Part shown: positions 11,224 to 50,881 of the stretch, in pieces | Position numbering within the stretch: position 1 is the first letter of the stretch | Layout of the letters: each line of letters begins with the position of its first letter | Virus record (IMG/VR): IMGVR_UViG_3300029922_000015 | Span: 32,001 to 96,000 of that record | DNA length: 64,000 nucleotides | Source: a virus | Reading direction: 5' to 3' (one strand) | Made by a program: the position numbers and the translations under genes | The notes under the pieces: generated by a model | Told to the model about the DNA's origin: nothing | Databases searched by the model: none | Seen by the model: only the letters and a program-made list of their open reading frames with translations

Positions 11224-12399
11224 TTAAGTTTTGTCGGGTACATTGTCGAATTCAACCACAGGGCTTTCTGCCGCTAGGAACGAGCAAGCGAGATTATAAA
11301 GATAAGTGGTTACGGGTTCATTATTTTCTAAATAATCCTGCACGTTCTTTATCCCTTGAAACTTATCAGGAGTTTCGGGCTGAATTTTTCTCATTTCCGC
11401 AAGCATACTATCTTCAAAATTAAACCAAGCGCCCGATTTAATTAAAAGCTCTTTAGCCAACATGAAGTCGCAAACTTCTAACTCCCTCCAAATAGAAGAA
11501 CCATTCTTTCGTCCGTGTTTAATTGGATAAGTAAGTCTCAAGCCCTTCGTTTCGTTAGAAGATTTCTTGATTTCTACCTTGCATTGATGGCCTAGAATTT
11601 TGTTTTGAATTCTATCGGGCTTCTTTTTCGGGTCTTCAAGGATCAAATCGCCGGGAAATTGAGGAGCATAATCAATAATGTAATCCGACCAGTGTAATAG
11701 GGCGTTTCCCCCTGTAGCAGAAATCGTTCGTGGAACTCCCGCCGCATAAGGATCAATTTTAACGTCTGCCGAAACTTGCGAAATAAAGATTGTTAAGTGA
11801 CCAAATTTAAACAGAGGCAAAGCGGATTGCTGTAAGAACTTCTTAGAAACAACTTGCGGGCCAGCCACCTTGTTACTTTCTTCTAAGTTCTTAAGTTTAT
11901 CTTGTTTAAGAATAACACCATCCACAGAATCTAAAATAAAGCAATATCTGATATGCTCGGGATTATTCTCGATCTGGCCCTGAATCAGTCCAAGAATATT
12001 TTCGTAAATATTACTTTCGTGAATGTAACAAGTACCATTTACCCAATCTTCGGTTGAGCCGGAAACAAAGGTTAAGCCAGAACGTTCGATTGTATCCTGA
12101 GATAATCTTCCTTCTGCCTTAATGTAAATCGCGCGAGAATTAGGAACAGTCTTTAAGAAATTGCGACAGATTTCGAAAGCTTCGGGAGTTTTTCCCGCTT
12201 GATTAAAACCAACCAAACGAATTAAACCGGGGCCGAAGCCTCCATTCAAAACCGAATCTAAGGTAAGAGAACCGCTTGAAACCTTATAGCTTACAGTCTC
12301 TTCGAAGTTATAATGTTCTGCTTTAGTTTCGTTTAGATAGGCTTGCAATCTGTCTTGCGGGGATACGCCTTTTTCTTTTTCAACTTCTTTTTTCGCCAT
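11224..12399 (-). CDS. recA: RecA/UvsX-like recombinase
   Basis: SSGSLTLD..LNGG, GFNQAGKT, ILDSV, TGGNAL and SGAWF motifs. Confidence 0.9.
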   Translation of the reverse strand: MAKKEVEKEKGVSPQDRLQAYLNETKAEHYNFEETVSYKVSSGSLTLDSVLNGGFGPGLIRLVGFNQAGKTPEAFEICRNFLKTVPNSRAIYIKAEGRLSQDTIERSGLTFVSGSTEDWVNGTCYIHESNIYENILGLIQGQIENNPEHIRYCFILDSVDGVILKQDKLKNLEESNKVAGPQVVSKKFLQQSALPLFKFGHLTIFISQVSADVKIDPYAAGVPRTISATGGNALLHWSDYIIDYAPQFPGDLILEDPKKKPDRIQNKILGHQCKVEIKKSSNETKGLRLTYPIKHGRKNGSSIWRELEVCDFMLAKELLIKSGAWFNFEDSMLAEMRKIQPETPDKFQGIKNVQDYLENNEPVTTYLYNLACSFLAAESPVVEFDNVPDKT

Positions 12400-14180: not shown

Positions 14181-14975
14181 CTATTTTAAAAGTAAGTGTT
14201 TGTACTTTTCCTGATTATTTACGATATTGTAAGGTAATAGGTTGATATCAATTTTCTCTAGGCGAACCGACATATCATAAGGATTATCACTATGAACAAA
14301 ATATCCACCGTCTTTCGCATGGGCATCGTAAACTCTCTTTAATTCGTCAAAATCTAATTTTTTATTAAAGGGCTCTACACAAGATATTAGTTTGCTTTTA
14401 AAACCCTCGAAATTATTCAACCAACCAAAGTGCCAGCCACCTTCTATATGATCAAAATGATCCTTTTGATTTCTAAATGCTTGCGGAGATTGAGAGCGGG
14501 CATCGTGGACATTGGTTAGAACCGTTCCGTGCCATTTTTTATGGAGGCACGCTAAATTTAAATAATAAGCAAAATAAATATGAGTAAAGGATACTGTTTT
14601 TAAGCTAATAGAGGACATTAAAAGCTGAGAGCATAATGAAGGCTTGCAAGGTATTTCGTCTAAATCGCTAATCATTACCAAATCATCTCCTCGGAAGCTT
14701 TGAAGCCCGCGAGATATACAATTTCTTTGATAATGTTCCATCGACCAGACATCGCCTGAATCGGGATAATCTTCTACCTTGACATGAATAATTTTCTTAG
14801 CATATTTCTCAAATCGGGCTTTATTCTCCTCGTAATAGAAAGGCTTATCTCTTAAAGTTTGGGTCTTGCCAGCTTCTACGAGGATAAAATGATCAACAAT
14901 ATCGTATAGATACTCTAAGCGGATTTCGAGTAAATCTAATTCATTAAAAAATGGGAAGGCGTCAATTAGTTTCAT
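14181..14975 (-). CDS. GT17-like glycosyltransferase
   Basis: DAFPFFNELDLLEIRL, E.YQRN, SDLDEIP and GGWHF motifs. Confidence 0.85.
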   Translation of the reverse strand: MKLIDAFPFFNELDLLEIRLEYLYDIVDHFILVEAGKTQTLRDKPFYYEENKARFEKYAKKIIHVKVEDYPDSGDVWSMEHYQRNCISRGLQSFRGDDLVMISDLDEIPCKPSLCSQLLMSSISLKTVSFTHIYFAYYLNLACLHKKWHGTVLTNVHDARSQSPQAFRNQKDHFDHIEGGWHFGWLNNFEGFKSKLISCVEPFNKKLDFDELKRVYDAHAKDGGYFVHSDNPYDMSVRLEKIDINLLPYNIVNNQEKYKHLLLK

Positions 14976-33439: not shown

Positions 33440-33531
33440 TGGAAGAGAAAAAGGGATTCGAACCCTTGGAGGACATTTCTGCCCTCGACTCTTTAGCAAA
33501 GAGTTCCGTTAAACCGCTCCGGCATTTCTCC
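33440..33531 (-). tRNA. tRNA-Ser(GCT)
   Basis: Cloverleaf, long V-arm, CCA encoded. Confidence 0.9.
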
Positions 33532-34007: not shown

Positions 34008-34511
34008 TTAAATTCTATCAGGAAAAGGCATTTCAGTAGCTTTTTCCGTAAACTTACAAATCTTCAAAGTCTTTCGAGACGAACTTTCAAAATTCGCTTT
34101 CAAAATCCCCAAAATCGTATTCCAATCGCCGCCGCCATAACCGCATCCTATTTTATAAGGAATAGTAAAAATTCTTCGGCTAGGCAAATCCTGCAATACT
34201 CGGGTTATACATAGACTAAAAGCCGCGTAATTAGTATAACATTTTCCGCGCCCATAATCAAATTGCGCGTACATATTTGCCACATATTTAATGTGCGAAT
34301 ATCTATCGCTAATTACTTCGGCATAGGAAACGGTTCCCAACTTGCTATCGTCGCCCTTGCGACCGTTACGCGCATCGATTCTATAAGCTTCGGGAATGCG
34401 CCGCTTTATCTCGCGAGCCAACCCCGCGCCCATCGTGCAAAAACAGTTACATTGATGCATCAAACAATCGCTTGGCGTTTTAAAAATGTCAGCTTCGATT
34501 TCTTGAATCAT
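34008..34511 (-). CDS. Macro-domain (ADP-ribose processing) protein
   Basis: HQCNC..TMGAGLA; PYKIGCGYGGGDW. Confidence 0.88.
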   Translation of the reverse strand: MIQEIEADIFKTPSDCLMHQCNCFCTMGAGLAREIKRRIPEAYRIDARNGRKGDDSKLGTVSYAEVISDRYSHIKYVANMYAQFDYGRGKCYTNYAAFSLCITRVLQDLPSRRIFTIPYKIGCGYGGGDWNTILGILKANFESSSRKTLKICKFTEKATEMPFPDRI

Positions 34512-38359: not shown

Positions 38360-38559
38360 TTTTGTTGTAGCCGTAGCCGCGTTTCTGTTTTATCTCTTCA
38401 TTTATCTATGCCTCAACCCGAATATGATCGCGTAACCGACACGCTAATTCTGTTTGAGTTGCTGGTTCCGTGGTAATCGAAATGAATTTCTCCCACGTTA
38501 GGTTATCCAGACGCGAACTTCCTCCAGATTACTCCAGCGAAGAGTCGCTTGCAACAAAA
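38360..38559 (-). ncRNA. rnpB: Minimal RNase P RNA (catalytic domain only)
   Basis: P1 TTTGTTGCA/TACAACAAA; CR-I GAGGAAGTTCGCG; AGCAA; TAGATAAATGA; CR-V ACAGAAACGCGGCTAC; about 200 nt. Confidence 0.85.
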
Positions 38560-47299: not shown

Positions 47300-47383
47300 T
47301 CAACAAGAAATATCCTAAACCACTAGAAGACTCTTACTCCATGAGTAAGAGGATGGATTCGAACCACCGTCTTTTCTTTTAAA
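47300..47383 (-). ncRNA. Circularly permuted tRNA mimic (YrlA-like) 1
   Basis: Order: AGAAA, GGTGG-TTCGAAT-CCATC, CTCTTACTC-ATG-GAGTAAGAG, TTCT-AGTGGTTT-AGGA, TTTCT. Confidence 0.75.
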
Positions 47384-47388
47384 TCAAA

Positions 47389-47457
47389 ATCGTCAAGTGT
47401 TTTACTATTAAACTATGGCATCTAACCACCAAGGATTTGCACCTAGAACTCCTGACT
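47389..47457 (-). ncRNA. Circularly permuted tRNA mimic (YrlA-like) 2
   Basis: GTCAGG, CTAGG-TGCAAAT-CCTTG, closed acceptor, GTTT-AATAGTA-AAAC, CTTGAC. Confidence 0.7.
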
Positions 47458-47462
47458 TTAAA

Positions 47463-47537
47463 TGGCACCCAAGCTTCGATTCGAACGAAGAACAGCCGTG
47501 TTAACAGCACGGAACTCTACCATTGAGCTACTCGGGT
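47463..47537 (-). tRNA. tRNA-Asn(GTT)
   Basis: Cloverleaf, G73. Confidence 0.9.
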
Positions 47538-47547
47538 ATAAAATTTT

Positions 47548-47695
47548 TCCTTATCCGCGACAATTTAATTGCACCTTGTACCATTAGAATATGATAATAA
47601 CGCAGAACAATGCGTTCAACTTGAATAACTATTTGCAATCCTCGTCAAATGACGCGCCGACGCCAATGACTACTCCACTGTTTCACGGATAAGAA
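47548..47695 (-). ncRNA. Unclassified structured RNA
   Basis: CTTATCCGTGA/TCGCGGATAAG closing stem with several internal hairpins. Confidence 0.45.
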
Positions 47696-47697
47696 AG

Positions 47698-47774
47698 TGG
47701 TGCGCCTAGCAGGAGTCGAACCTGCAAAACCAAAGCTCTCGACCTTGTATGTATGCCAATTCCATCATAGGCGC
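47698..47774 (-). tRNA. tRNA-Leu(GAG) lacking the V-arm
   Basis: Leu-type D-arm (TGGAATTGGCATAC), A73, 5-nt variable loop, C33. Confidence 0.8.
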
Positions 47775-47903
47775 GTAAAACGATAAGCAAGTCAATATAC
47801 CCTCTCCTTGATCCTATATCTCCATCACAAACGCCTTACCGTTTGTACCGACGTAATAATATAGTCATGTTATGACTTATCAGAGCGATTAGCTTATCTA
47901 AAA

Positions 47904-47989
47904 TGGTGCACCTAGAGGGAATCGAACCCCCACGCCTTGCGGCATACGATCCTAAGTCGTAAGCGTCTGCCTAGTTCCGCCACAGGTGC
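47904..47989 (-). tRNA. tRNA-Leu(TAG)
   Basis: Cloverleaf with V-arm. Confidence 0.92.
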
Positions 47990-47997
47990 ATTAAATT

Positions 47998-48075
47998 TGG
48001 TCGGGCTGGTGGGACTCAAACCCACGGTAATACTTGATCCCAAATCAAGCGCCATCGTCACTAGGCGACAGCCCG
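47998..48075 (-). tRNA. tRNA-Pro(TGG)
   Basis: C1:G72 pair, cloverleaf. Confidence 0.88.
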
Positions 48076-48082
48076 ATAAAAT

Positions 48083-48150
48083 TAATCCCGGTAAGACTGG
48101 AACTTACATATTTGGCTTTGTGGGCTTGCCTCTAATTGGGCTACGGGAAA
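48083..48150 (-). pseudogene. Degenerate tRNA-like element
   Basis: TCCCG/CGGGA acceptor, GCC/GGC D-stem, GTAAG/CTTAC T-stem, collapsed anticodon arm, no CCA. Confidence 0.4.
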
Positions 48151-48332
48151 ATTACTTATAAAACAAACTAATCGCAATGTAAATTGCGACGAAATATTCG
48201 AAATTGGTATGACAGGATAACACTATCAAAAACCACAGTCCAATCTTGAACCAATGTAAAAATTTATTTTTGTCCATTCTCTAATTATACGGTTTCCCCG
48301 ATAAAAAGTCAACTCGAAGTGTAATAAGAGTT

Positions 48333-48467
48333 ATGAACTCATTCGAACGTTGTGTTATCTATATCTGCTTGACTGTCTTGATGTTATCTATCCTACATAT
48401 CGCCGCCAGCGTTGGGCTTATGTATTTTCTAGCGTCTAATCAAATTCCGATTCCTACCGGACAATAA
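48333..48467 (+). CDS. 44-aa single-TM peptide (not in ORF track)
   Basis: GTGTAA-N8-ATG start; MNSFERCVIYICLTVLMLSILHIAASVGLMYFLASNQIPIPTGQ. Confidence 0.5.
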   Translation: MNSFERCVIYICLTVLMLSILHIAASVGLMYFLASNQIPIPTGQ

Positions 48468-48469
48468 AT

Positions 48470-48544
48470 TGGTGGGCCATGACAATTACGATATGTCAAC
48501 TTACGGGTTAAGAATCCGTTACTCTTCCTTTGAGTTAATGGCCC
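48470..48544 (-). tRNA. tRNA-Lys(CTT)
   Basis: Cloverleaf with atypical T-arm, CCA. Confidence 0.8.
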
Positions 48545-48548
48545 AAAA

Positions 48549-48636
48549 TGGAGGACGCGACAGGATTCGAACCTGTGATGGCATTTACGCACGAGGTTAA
48601 AAGTCTCGTCTATTCGACCGCTATAGTAACGCATCC
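48549..48636 (-). tRNA. tRNA(TTT), nominally Lys, with long V-arm
   Basis: Loop CTTTTAA; 15-nt variable arm; U73. Confidence 0.8.
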
Positions 48637-48641
48637 AAAAA

Positions 48642-48718
48642 TGGTAGCCGAAAAGGGAGTCGAACCCTTAAAATCGAAGATTTGAATTTCGCACGTATGC
48701 CAATTCCGTCATTCGGCC
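48642..48718 (-). tRNA. tRNA-Leu(CAA) lacking the V-arm
   Basis: Leu-type D-arm, A73, 5-nt variable loop. Confidence 0.8.
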
Positions 48719-48723
48719 AATAA

Positions 48724-48812
48724 ATCGGAGCAAGTGTTTTGTTATTAAACTACCTCGGTTCACCATTTAAGGCGCAGGGGTGAGGAATAGATTCGGACTA
48801 TTATTTCTTGCA
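48724..48812 (-). ncRNA. Circularly permuted tRNA mimic (YrlA-like) 3
   Basis: GCAAG, AATAG-TCCGAAT-CTATT, CCTC...GAGG, GTTT-AATAACA-AAAC, CTTGC. Confidence 0.7.
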
Positions 48813-48817
48813 AAATC

Positions 48818-48886
48818 ATCGTCAAGCATTTTACTATTAAACTATGGCATATAGCCACTAAGGATTTGCACCTAGAACTCCTGACT
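48818..48886 (-). ncRNA. Circularly permuted tRNA mimic (YrlA-like) 4; near-duplicate of 47389-47457
   Basis: Same architecture and nearly identical sequence. Confidence 0.7.
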
Positions 48887-50461: not shown

Positions 50462-50881
50462 TTATCCGTGGAATGCGTTGAATGTTGTATTGTAACTATC
50501 AAATAAATTCTTGATCTTCTCTGAACCGACAGGATTCATCGAGTGAACGTGAATCTCTGGAAGCTTCAAGCGATGGTGAAGACAATACTCGAAAAGGAAT
50601 TGGGCGCAGTGATAGCCAGTCTTTTCTTTGACCGAATCGTAAAACTTGTCTTCTCCTGTATAAAGAACGCGCCCACTAACATAAGCTTGATAATGCTCGT
50701 CGGCCAAATCGTGATCGAAGGAAACCTTTTCAGGAACTCCCTTATCCATGATCGTTTTACAAAAATCGTGGTAGTTCCGAACCACAAGAATATTCGTAAG
50801 GGGGAAGAACTTGTCTTCAAAGTCTCCCCACTTTACGTTCTTAGGTTCTCTAACGTCGTCAAGAAATAACTTATAAGACAT
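50462..50881 (-). CDS. Cyclic-phosphate-processing receiver domain protein (RNA repair-associated)
   Basis: LFLDDVR, VRNY, SFDHDL, TGY and VHSMNPVG motifs. Confidence 0.8.
   Translation of the reverse strand: MSYKLFLDDVREPKNVKWGDFEDKFFPLTNILVVRNYHDFCKTIMDKGVPEKVSFDHDLADEHYQAYVSGRVLYTGEDKFYDSVKEKTGYHCAQFLFEYCLHHRLKLPEIHVHSMNPVGSEKIKNLFDSYNTTFNAFHG

What the first reader, a model, noticed from the sequence alone, without database searches (positions are those of the whole stretch)
47300..48886. Family of circularly permuted tRNA mimics (YrlA-like) inside the array
Seen: four units (47300-47383, 47389-47457, 48724-48812, 48818-48886) arranged as two tandem pairs. Each runs 3' anticodon-stem strand, variable loop, T-arm, acceptor stem closed by a loop, D-arm, 5' anticodon-stem strand. 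This is a tRNA opened at the anticodon loop and sealed at the acceptor end. All end in CTTG followed shortly by GATTT. Units 2 and 4 are near-duplicates. Established: bacterial YrlA Y RNAs have this permuted topology and bind Ro60/Rsr, and Y RNAs carry CUUG in the 3' strand. No Ro gene is in this window. Inference: these RNAs have no anticodon and cannot be charged, so they could act as decoys for tRNA-targeting toxins or as Ro/RtcB-linked RNAs.
Basis: partly seen in the sequence, partly recalled or inferred. Interest (0 to 1): 0.85.

Follow-up and report, generated by a model that had tools for sequence, protein, structure and literature searches.

The report
Permuted anticodon-less tRNA mimics, phage array
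Four small RNA genes occupying tRNA slots in an uncultured phage's tRNA cluster are tRNAs turned inside out, with no anticodon and a sealed amino-acid end; they are real and at least one looks selected, they share the shape of bacterial YrlA Y RNAs but fail that family's membership tests, and their job (my best guess is a tRNA decoy) is unproven.

Summary
On the minus strand, four units (47457-47389, 47383-47300, 48886-48818, 48812-48724) lie in two tandem pairs inside a 35-tRNA plus tmRNA array of a ~150 kb uncultured phage. Each reads 3' anticodon-stem strand, variable loop, T arm, closed acceptor hairpin, D arm, 5' anticodon-stem strand, with exact tRNA spacing.

They derive from tRNA genes. 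Un-permuted, unit 1 is a clean tRNA. Units 2, 3 and 4 share a 22-nt D-arm/anticodon-stem block with a normal-order tRNA-Ile(UAU) of other phages, which explains the shared CTTG. The GATTT is the array's ordinary U-rich trailer.

Unit 3 has an ortholog in a related phage, with two compensatory pair changes and tRNA-level conservation. A third phage carries a similar tandem pair.

They are not YrlA members. The Rfam model gives no match, the Ro-binding motif is missing, and neither this record nor 37 related ones encode a Ro60-like gene. No RNA ligase was found, so maturation into decoding tRNAs is unlikely.

Best reading: anticodon-less tRNA look-alikes excised with the tRNAs, probably protein-binding decoys. 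Debris remains a real rival. The scan has noted similar phage tRNA mimics on other DNA, including one handle-less case.

The parts
47389..47457 (-). Unit 2 (short type, 69 nt). It has a 6-bp terminal stem (the former anticodon stem), a 4-nt variable loop, and a T arm with a UGCAAAU loop (G at position 55). It then has a 4-5 bp acceptor hairpin with a 5-nt loop, U8 A9, and a D arm with an AAUAGUA loop (A at position 18). It ends in a U-rich trailer.
   Evidence: Sequence; fold; model R1 scores 101.3 bits; all 19 pairs are kept in both copies; its D arm is matched by the Rfam tRNA model.
47300..47383 (-). Unit 1 (long type, 84 nt). It has a 6-bp terminal stem, a 4-nt variable loop, and a canonical T arm (UUCGAAU loop). 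The acceptor stem is 7 bp, lengthened to 9 bp and closed by a 3-nt loop, with no CCA. It has U8, a canonical D arm with GG, and G15:C48.
   Evidence: The minimum-energy fold is the permuted cloverleaf. ARAGORN calls a tRNA once the unit is un-permuted. Its T arm is matched by the Rfam tRNA model.
48818..48886 (-). Unit 4, a near-duplicate of unit 2 (64/69 identical). Its first 29 bases overlap the end, stop codon included, of an HNH/EndoVII-like ORF (49424-48858).
   Evidence: (101.4 bits).
48724..48812 (-). Unit 3 (long type, 89 nt). It has a 5-bp terminal stem and a T arm with a UCCGAAU loop. The acceptor-like arm is irregular and two-tiered. The D arm has an AAUAACA loop, and A15:U48 is present. 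Its 3' half is related to units 2 and 4.
   Evidence: Fold. An ortholog at L088:13911-13993 keeps 14/14 pairs with 2 double compensatory changes. Conservation equals that of real tRNAs.

Best explanation
The four units are tRNA-derived small RNA genes in which the tRNA body is circularly permuted. The old anticodon stem joins the two ends, the anticodon loop is gone, and the acceptor stem is sealed by a short loop.

They sit in ordinary tRNA slots and are probably transcribed within the tRNA operons. They would then be released by the same cuts that free the neighbouring tRNAs: RNase P at the 5' end of the next tRNA, and an endonuclease cut in the U-rich trailer.

The product shows a tRNA elbow (T loop against D loop) and an acceptor-like minihelix, but it can be neither charged nor decoded. 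I therefore read them as tRNA look-alikes that occupy a tRNA-recognising protein. The most likely role is a non-cleavable decoy or sponge in the phage-host conflict over tRNAs. They are not Ro60-bound Y RNAs and not tRNA precursors.

Shown: the topology, the tRNA ancestry, the slot-like placement, and conservation of one unit. Inferred: transcription, processing, protein binding, and the decoy role.

My odds: real RNAs under selection about 0.75; acting by binding a tRNA-recognising protein about 0.55; specifically an anti-defence decoy about 0.3.
For: - Geometry: tRNA spacing is exact in all four units. The acceptor hairpin starts directly after the T stem, two bases precede the D stem, and the variable loop is 4-5 nt.
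- Tertiary pairs: U8-A14 is present in all units. The Levitt pair covaries, G15:C48 in unit 1 and A15:U48 in units 2-4.
- Redesigned acceptor ends: there is no CCA and no trailer. The stem is lengthened to 9 bp with a triloop in unit 1 and cut to 4-5 bp in units 2 and 4. A simple tandem-duplication remnant would not look like this.
- Slot placement: spacers are 5 nt with the same trailer that follows the CCA of every tRNA. No terminator-like site lies between the units and their neighbours, and promoter-like sites lie upstream.
- Ortholog of unit 3 in a relative whose glycosyltransferase is 69% identical. It sits in the same array position while the flanking ORFs are unrelated. It keeps 14/14 pairs with 2 double compensatory changes. 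It is 79-81% identical in the structured parts, against a median of 66% for same-anticodon tRNAs between the two phages.
- Units 2 and 4 differ at 5 of 69 positions. Three differences are in stems and all keep pairing; two are unpaired.
- Other permuted units exist in tRNA slots of other phages. L088:14623-14697 has a 7-bp acceptor. L078 has a tandem pair at 11359-11434 plus 11438-11511, again a G55-type unit followed by a canonical one, and a single unit at 9381-9450.
- Conflict context: a cRec cyclic-phosphate-processing domain gene heads the array (50462-50881). A Macro-like gene lies inside it. The cRec link to RNA repair is from PMC7824862.
Against: - There is no expression data at all.
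- The unit 2-unit 1 pair is missing at the matching place (between tRNA-Asn and tRNA-Gln) in the closest relative found, where an HNH gene sits instead. Unit 4 is missing there too.
- Covariation rests on pairs of sequences only, so it is statistically weak (104 of 500 shuffles reach it).
- Folding energies barely beat shuffles for units 2 and 4.
- No partner protein is identified.
- A body without an anticodon loop is a poor bait for nucleases that read the anticodon loop.
- The array is full of homing endonuclease genes that could generate rearranged tRNA fragments.
Confidence: 0.45

Rival explanations
1. Evolutionary debris. The units are non-functional leftovers of tRNA gene duplication and deletion in an array constantly cut and repaired by homing endonucleases. 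Their complementarity is simply inherited from the parent tRNAs.
For: - The halves are clearly tRNA-derived.
- Many HNH/EndoVII genes lie in the array.
- Units 1, 2 and 4 have no ortholog in the nearest relative.
- Model R1 finds no copy in 37 related records.
- Folding z-scores are weak.
Against: - The acceptor junctions are remodelled into tight hairpins without CCA or trailer.
- Unit 3 is kept with compensatory changes and at tRNA-like identity across phages whose flanking ORFs differ.
- The same topology recurs independently in three phages, and always in tRNA slots.
- All 5 differences between units 2 and 4 are structure-neutral.
Confidence: 0.22
2. True Y RNAs of the YrlA type. The units would bind a Ro60/Rsr ring supplied by the host, or by the missing quarter of the phage genome, and tether it to a partner enzyme.
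For: - The domain order is the same as in YrlA, and the Levitt-pair covariation matches (PMC4201824).
- YrlA and YrlB are also tandem and cut from a single precursor.
- A unit of the analogous pair in L078 scores 39.7 bits (E about 1e-7 to 2e-6) on the Rfam YrlA model.
- The 3' strand of units 2 and 4 reads CUUGAC. From memory, this resembles the conserved 3' strand of animal Y RNAs.
Against: - There is no YrlA model match on any of the four units at E up to 10.
- The GNCGAAN0-1G motif is absent.
- The terminal stem is only 5-6 bp, with no long handle.
- TROVE and DUF2828 are absent here and in 37 relatives, including 8 near-complete genomes.
- RtcB is absent.
- CTTG is explained by tRNA ancestry.
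Confidence: 0.12
3. Processing elements. The tRNA-shaped units would act in cis or in trans on the tRNA-maturation machinery (RNase P, the 3' trimming enzymes, the CCA enzyme). They could punctuate the polycistronic transcript or titrate these enzymes.
For: - They are placed exactly like tRNAs and carry the same trailers.
- Unit 1 and L088:14623-14697 keep a 7-bp acceptor stem on a T arm. [quoted passage not shown]
Against: - Neighbouring tRNAs already supply RNase P and trailer sites every 80 nt, so extra punctuation is unnecessary.
- Units 2 and 4 have acceptor stems too short for RNase P.
- No supporting data exist.
Confidence: 0.1
4. Permuted tRNA genes in the Cyanidioschyzon sense. The ends would be ligated to restore an anticodon loop, and the acceptor loop would then be opened to give a working tRNA. 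For unit 1 this would carry an ochre-reading UUA anticodon.
For: Un-permuted, unit 1 is a well-formed tRNA. The 7 bases before its 3' anticodon-stem strand could serve as a loop with U33 and A37. The array lacks tRNA-Ala.
Against: - The record has no RtcB, Rnl1 or Rnl2-type ligase.
- Bacteria have no splicing endonuclease (established knowledge).
- Units 2 and 4 have 4-5 bp acceptor stems, and unit 3 has an irregular one.
- No unit has the G3:U70 pair that marks tRNA-Ala.
- The supposed loop is just the AT-rich spacer; the same bases precede unit 2.
- The flanks are 5-13 nt, so there is no room for intron halves.
Confidence: 0.04

Closest known systems
YrlA Y RNAs of Ro60-encoding bacteria and mycobacteriophages (Rfam RF02553; Chen et al. 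2014, PMC4201824)
   Same: Both have a tRNA-like domain in permuted order: variable region, T arm, closed acceptor-like stem-loop, D arm, all inside a stem formed by the RNA's two ends. Both keep tRNA tertiary pairs, including G15:C48 / A15:U48 covariation. Both have tandem RNAs made from one precursor. Some members have a 7-bp acceptor stem.
   Different: The units have no long basal stem and no GNCGAAN0-1G Ro-binding motif. They do not match the Rfam model. No Ro60 gene is nearby or anywhere in the lineage sampled. They sit in tRNA slots of a tRNA array rather than beside rsr.
Permuted tRNA genes of Cyanidioschyzon merolae and other algae (Soma et al. 2007; recalled from memory, with reviews PMC3400036 and PMC4090602 seen only as search hits)
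   Same: The 3' half of a tRNA is encoded upstream of its 5' half, with the acceptor strands joined by a short intervening sequence.
   Different: The algal genes keep a complete anticodon loop once their ends are joined. They depend on a splicing endonuclease and a ligase, and they yield working tRNAs. Here the loop sequence, the enzymes and (in three of four units) a full acceptor stem are all missing.
Phage 'handle plus cargo' RNAs beside Ro60-like DUF2828 genes, and one 'handle-less' tRNA mimic
   Same: These are permuted tRNA-shaped RNAs hidden in phage tRNA arrays. The handle-less case has the same bare architecture.
   Different: The stem-plus-CAGCAA handle is absent from this record's array, and the DUF2828 gene is absent. 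Handle-type RNAs were seen only in the unrelated locus L078.

Membership tests
YrlA (Rfam RF02553) | Match to the family covariance model at or above 69 bits | tested here: not met
   No YrlA match on either pair at E up to 10. The best score in the whole record is 13.8 bits, on a tRNA-tRNA junction. A look-alike unit in L078 reaches 39.7 bits.
YrlA (Rfam RF02553) | GNCGAAN0-1G motif near the 5' end (putative Ro60 contact) | tested here: not met
   The 5' strands read GUCAGGAG (units 2 and 4), GCAAGAAA (unit 3) and AAGAAAAG (unit 1). The motif definition is from PMC4201824.
YrlA (Rfam RF02553) | Encoded within about 4 kb of a Ro60 (TROVE) gene, on the same strand | tested here: not met
   TROVE and DUF2828 are absent from the 150 kb record (75% complete) and from 37 related records. 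The DUF2828 control rang in no control genome at the strict cut-off, so that negative is weaker.
YrlA (Rfam RF02553) | Permuted tRNA-like domain (V, T, closed AS, D) with tRNA tertiary pairs | tested here: met
   Folds and geometry. U8-A14 and the covarying 15:48 pair are read from the sequence.
YrlA (Rfam RF02553) | Binding to Ro60/Rsr | not testable with these tools
   This needs biochemistry, and the host is unknown.
tRNA (Rfam RF00005) | Full cloverleaf in normal order, with anticodon loop and free acceptor end | tested here: not met
   Only local matches (model positions 8-63) at 25.3 and 24.0 bits, below the 29-bit threshold, and spanning two units. ARAGORN calls nothing here.
Permuted tRNA genes (algal/archaeal type) | 3' half upstream of 5' half of one tRNA | tested here: met
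   for unit 1; folds for the others.
Permuted tRNA genes (algal/archaeal type) | Restorable 7-nt anticodon loop, full 7-bp acceptor stem, and joining enzymes | tested here: not met
   No RtcB, Rnl1 or Rnl2-type ligase was found. Acceptor stems are 4-5 bp in units 2 and 4 and irregular in unit 3. The flanks are plain spacers.
Phage stem-plus-CAGCAA 'handle' RNAs (this scan's earlier notes) | Terminal stem followed by an unpaired (A)CAGCAA, beside a DUF2828 gene | tested here: not met
   No such motif at or near the units, and no enrichment in the array. No DUF2828.

The most novel reading that the evidence does not exclude
The units would be a class of phage anti-defence RNAs: uncleavable tRNA bodies with the elbow and minihelix kept and the anticodon loop deleted. 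Made in bulk from the tRNA operon, they would soak up host tRNA-targeting immune nucleases or tRNA-modifying toxins. The two-unit design would offer two different elbows (G55/A18 type and canonical type) to cover different enemies. They would work alongside the cRec and Macro enzymes encoded in the same region.
Probability: 0.2. Interest if true: 0.85.

Novelty: new variant of a known kind. Interest (0 to 1): 0.5.

Why it matters
Phage tRNA arrays are usually read as codon-usage helpers or as replacements for tRNAs destroyed by host defences. If phages also carry anticodon-less tRNA bodies with no Ro60 partner, then tRNA mimicry would be a tool in its own right, and the known YrlA Y RNAs would be one branch of a wider set of permuted tRNA mimics.

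These units also give a compact test object for asking which proteins recognise a tRNA by its body alone. They are 65-90 nt long, of two elbow types, and have traceable tRNA ancestors.

If they are only debris, they still show how homing-endonuclease traffic reshuffles tRNA genes. They also warn that permuted tRNA shapes in arrays need conservation evidence before being given a function.

Tried and rejected
- Close relatives by DNA: megablast and blastn of the region against 50,697 phage records found only 21-25 nt T-arm matches to phage tRNA-Tyr and tRNA-Gln genes.
- Exact-pattern scans:
  - Four of the five viral contigs patterns built on unit features found nothing.
  - The fifth found normal tRNA-Ile(UAU) genes, which was informative.
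  - The single metagenome scan gave two chance hits with no tRNA context.
- Covariance model R1 (units 2 and 4): in 37 related IMG/VR records it found only a tRNA-tRNA junction and two poor matches.
- Synteny through neighbouring proteins:
  - The 257-aa ORF has no relatives in viral contigs.
  - The 188-aa ORF is a mobile HNH/EndoVII-type gene found in unrelated contexts. One of its homologs did, by luck, lead to L078.
  - Glycosyltransferase relatives at 41-56% identity mostly lack an adjacent tRNA array. Only the 69% relative, L088, has one.
- Reading each pair as one normal tRNA built from the 5' half of the upstream unit and the 3' half of the downstream unit: rejected, because the acceptor and anticodon strands are not complementary across units.
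- Plus-strand reading: rejected, because the motifs then fall in the wrong arms and every gene of the array is on the minus strand.
- Group I permuted intron-exon idea: rejected, because the flanks are only 5-13 nt.
- MITE-like mobile element: no target-site duplication around units 2 and 4.
- tRNA-Ala hidden in the units: no G3:U70 pair.
- Thermodynamic stability as evidence: z-scores are too weak to use.
Full report
**Setting.** The window is bases 32001-96000 of a 149,934-bp IMG/VR virus record (38.6% G+C, CheckV about 75% complete). Its DnaE-type polymerase is at most 30% identical to any cultured phage, so lineage and host are unknown. Between window positions 33440 and 49542, all on the minus strand, ARAGORN finds 33 tRNAs and a tmRNA. 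Rfam adds two more tRNAs. Together they cover 19 amino acids, with tRNA-Ala missing. The ORFs scattered through the array are mostly HNH/EndoVII homing endonucleases.

**The observation.**
- Unit 1 (47383-47300) folds, as its minimum-energy structure, into a 6-bp terminal stem, a 4-nt variable loop and a canonical T arm. The acceptor stem is 7 bp, lengthened to 9 bp and closed by three bases. A canonical D arm follows.
- Unit 3 (48812-48724) has the same layout with an irregular two-tier acceptor arm.
- Units 2 and 4 (47457-47389 and 48886-48818) are 64/69 identical. They have a 6-bp terminal stem, a T arm with one bulge, a 4-5 bp acceptor hairpin and a D arm.
- The Rfam tRNA model independently recognises the D arms of units 2 and 4 and the T arms of units 1 and 3, as local matches of 25.3 and 24.0 bits across the junctions.
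- When unit 1 is duplicated so that its 5' half precedes its 3' half, ARAGORN calls a clean tRNA with U8, A14, G15:C48, G18G19, a UUCGAAU loop and a U73 discriminator.

Folding energies alone are unconvincing (z from -0.4 to -1.9), so I tested geometry instead. My scanner requires a T arm, an immediately adjoining acceptor hairpin, two bases, a D arm and a perfect 5-bp terminal stem. It returns units 1, 2 and 4 plus one dubious hit in the whole record. It returns one true unit (in a relative's array) and two probable false hits in about 1.45 Mb of other loci, and 0-1 hit per shuffled copy of all 1.51 Mb scanned. A stricter earlier version also caught unit 3.

**Where the units come from.** A 22-nt block shared by units 2, 3 and 4 (D arm plus the next strand) matches, in three other viral contigs, a normal-order 93-nt tRNA with anticodon UAU and a long variable arm. 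In that tRNA the block is the D arm plus the 5' strand of the anticodon stem, and the T loop carries the same rare G at position 55. The T arm of units 2 and 4 is almost identical to that of the tRNA-Ile(UAU) of locus L078. So these units are permuted derivatives of that tRNA type, with the anticodon loop and long arm removed and the acceptor shortened.

This explains the shared CTTG, which is the old anticodon-stem strand. The GATTT that follows is also ordinary. Every tRNA in the array ends in an encoded CCA followed by (C/U/A)UUU, and the units are separated from their neighbours by the same 5-nt U-rich spacers. The units therefore sit in tRNA slots. Promoter-like sites lie upstream of each pair, and no terminator-like site separates the units from their neighbours.

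**Signs of selection.**
- The tertiary pair 15:48 covaries among the units: G:C in unit 1 and A:U in units 2-4.
- The five differences between units 2 and 4 are two unpaired bases and three stem changes that all keep pairing.
- The acceptor junctions are not what a tandem tRNA duplication leaves behind. The CCA and the trailer are gone, and the stems are either lengthened and capped or shortened and capped.
- The best evidence is an ortholog. A Logan contig whose glycosyltransferase is 69% identical (L088) has a similar array downstream of that gene.
  - After tRNA-Gly(GCC) and an unrelated ORF, it carries the counterpart of unit 3 at L088:13911-13993.
  - All 14 pairs of the terminal, T and D stems are kept. 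Two pairs changed on both sides (G:C to U:A, and A:U to G:C). The acceptor arm differs in sequence but still forms a hairpin.
  - Identity is 79-81% in the structured parts and 67% overall. The median for 19 same-anticodon tRNAs between the two phages is 66%.
- L088 also has a different, well-formed permuted unit after tRNA-Lys(UUU), at 14623-14697.
- An unrelated 147-kb Logan contig (L078) has a tandem pair between tRNA-Ala and tRNA-Val. It is again a G55-type unit followed by a canonical-type unit, with quite different stem sequences. It also has a single unit that shares a 15-nt block with unit 3.

Caveats on this evidence:
- The counts rest on two sequences per family, so they are statistically weak.
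- Units 1, 2 and 4 have no counterpart in L088, where an HNH gene lies between tRNA-Asn and tRNA-Gln.
- Model R1 found nothing real in 37 more distant relatives.

**Is it YrlA?** The published YrlA architecture is topologically the same. It has a 5' strand with GNCGAAN0-1G, then V, T, AS and D stem-loops, then a 3' strand. It has Levitt-pair covariation, tandem YrlA/YrlB from one precursor, and RNase P cleavage when the AS stem has 7 bp (PMC4201824). Membership nevertheless fails each testable criterion:
- The Rfam model gives no match on the units. Its best score in the record is 13.8 bits against a threshold of 69.
- The motif is absent.
- No TROVE or DUF2828 gene exists in the record or in 37 related records, 8 of them at least 90% complete.
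- The one bridge is that the canonical unit of the L078 pair scores 39.7 bits on the YrlA model.

Earlier notes of this scan describe many phage arrays holding permuted tRNA mimics on a stem-plus-CAGCAA handle beside DUF2828 genes, and one handle-less case. I tested that lead. The handle is absent here, so these units belong with the handle-less kind.

**Could they become real tRNAs?** This is unlikely. No RtcB, Rnl1, Rnl2-type ligase or RlaP was found. Three of the four units lack a full acceptor stem. The supposed anticodon loop upstream of unit 1 is just the AT-rich spacer, which also precedes unit 2. The flanks are too short for intron halves.

**Most likely mechanism.** The units are transcribed with the tRNAs and freed by RNase P acting on the downstream tRNA and by cuts in the U-rich trailers. 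This gives 65-90 nt RNAs that display a tRNA elbow and an acceptor-like minihelix, but have no anticodon and no chargeable end. Such an RNA can only work by being recognised as a tRNA body. I therefore favour a protein-binding mimic, most plausibly a decoy in the conflict over tRNAs.

That reading fits the context. A large tRNA array and a tmRNA are present. A cRec cyclic-phosphate-processing gene sits at the head of the array, and a Macro-like gene lies inside it. This step is inference. The debris hypothesis keeps about a fifth of the probability, a host-Ro60 Y-RNA role about a tenth, and a role in the tRNA-processing machinery (rival 3) about another tenth.

**Verdict.**
- Observation: confirmed.
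- Interpretation: partly supported. It works like the tRNA-like head of YrlA but is not a YrlA member.
- Novelty: a new variant of a known kind, already met by this scan on other DNA.
- Interest: moderate.

Noticed in passing
window 42246-42157; also L088:17783-17874, L078:9263-9354, L082:4540-4632, L083:3699-3791: A tRNA with anticodon UAU (AUA-Ile by anticodon) carries a long class-II-type variable arm and is 90-93 nt long. It recurs in several unrelated phage arrays. Which synthetase charges it is unclear.
   Followed up: partly
L078:9263-12995: Nearly all tRNAs of this Logan phage contig have a UGCRANU T loop (G in place of the universal U55) and D loops without GG. This looks like a systematically altered tRNA elbow. 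In the present window only units 2 and 4 have it.
   Followed up: partly
window 38360-38559 and L088:20099-20330: The stretch another first-stage note called a minimal RNase P RNA has no Rfam match at E up to 1. Its putative CR-I and CR-V blocks are conserved in the relative L088, so a conserved non-coding RNA of unknown kind is likely.
   Followed up: partly
window 50462-50881 (-) and 34008-34511 (-): A cRec (cyclic-phosphate-processing receiver, PF20274, E 2.5e-19) gene sits at the head of the tRNA array. A Macro-like / phrog_335 'phosphatase' gene lies inside it. The record has no RNA ligase gene, although relatives L090 and L087 carry PF09414 ligases and L085 carries RtcB.
   Followed up: partly
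window 47640-47545 (-) and L088:16600-16680: A block of about 90 nt upstream of tRNA-Asn is conserved between the two phages. It includes a promoter-like site at 47619-47591, so it may be a promoter/leader or a small RNA.
   Followed up: no
window 42476-42400, 42326-42250, 40257-40182 (-): There are three identical copies of one tRNA-Met(CAU) gene. The array has no tRNA-Ala, although 19 other amino acids are covered.
   Followed up: no
L078:9780-9950 and L078:10903-11167: Two RNAs with a terminal stem plus ACAGCAA, ending in CCA plus the U-rich trailer, match the 'handle' RNAs of earlier scan notes. There is also a sub-threshold manA RNA match (41.8 bits against 55.2).
   Followed up: no
window 48333-48467 (+): A 44-codon hydrophobic ORF lies on the strand opposite to the array, in the 394-nt gap that also holds a strong promoter-like site (48312-48284, minus strand).
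   Followed up: no
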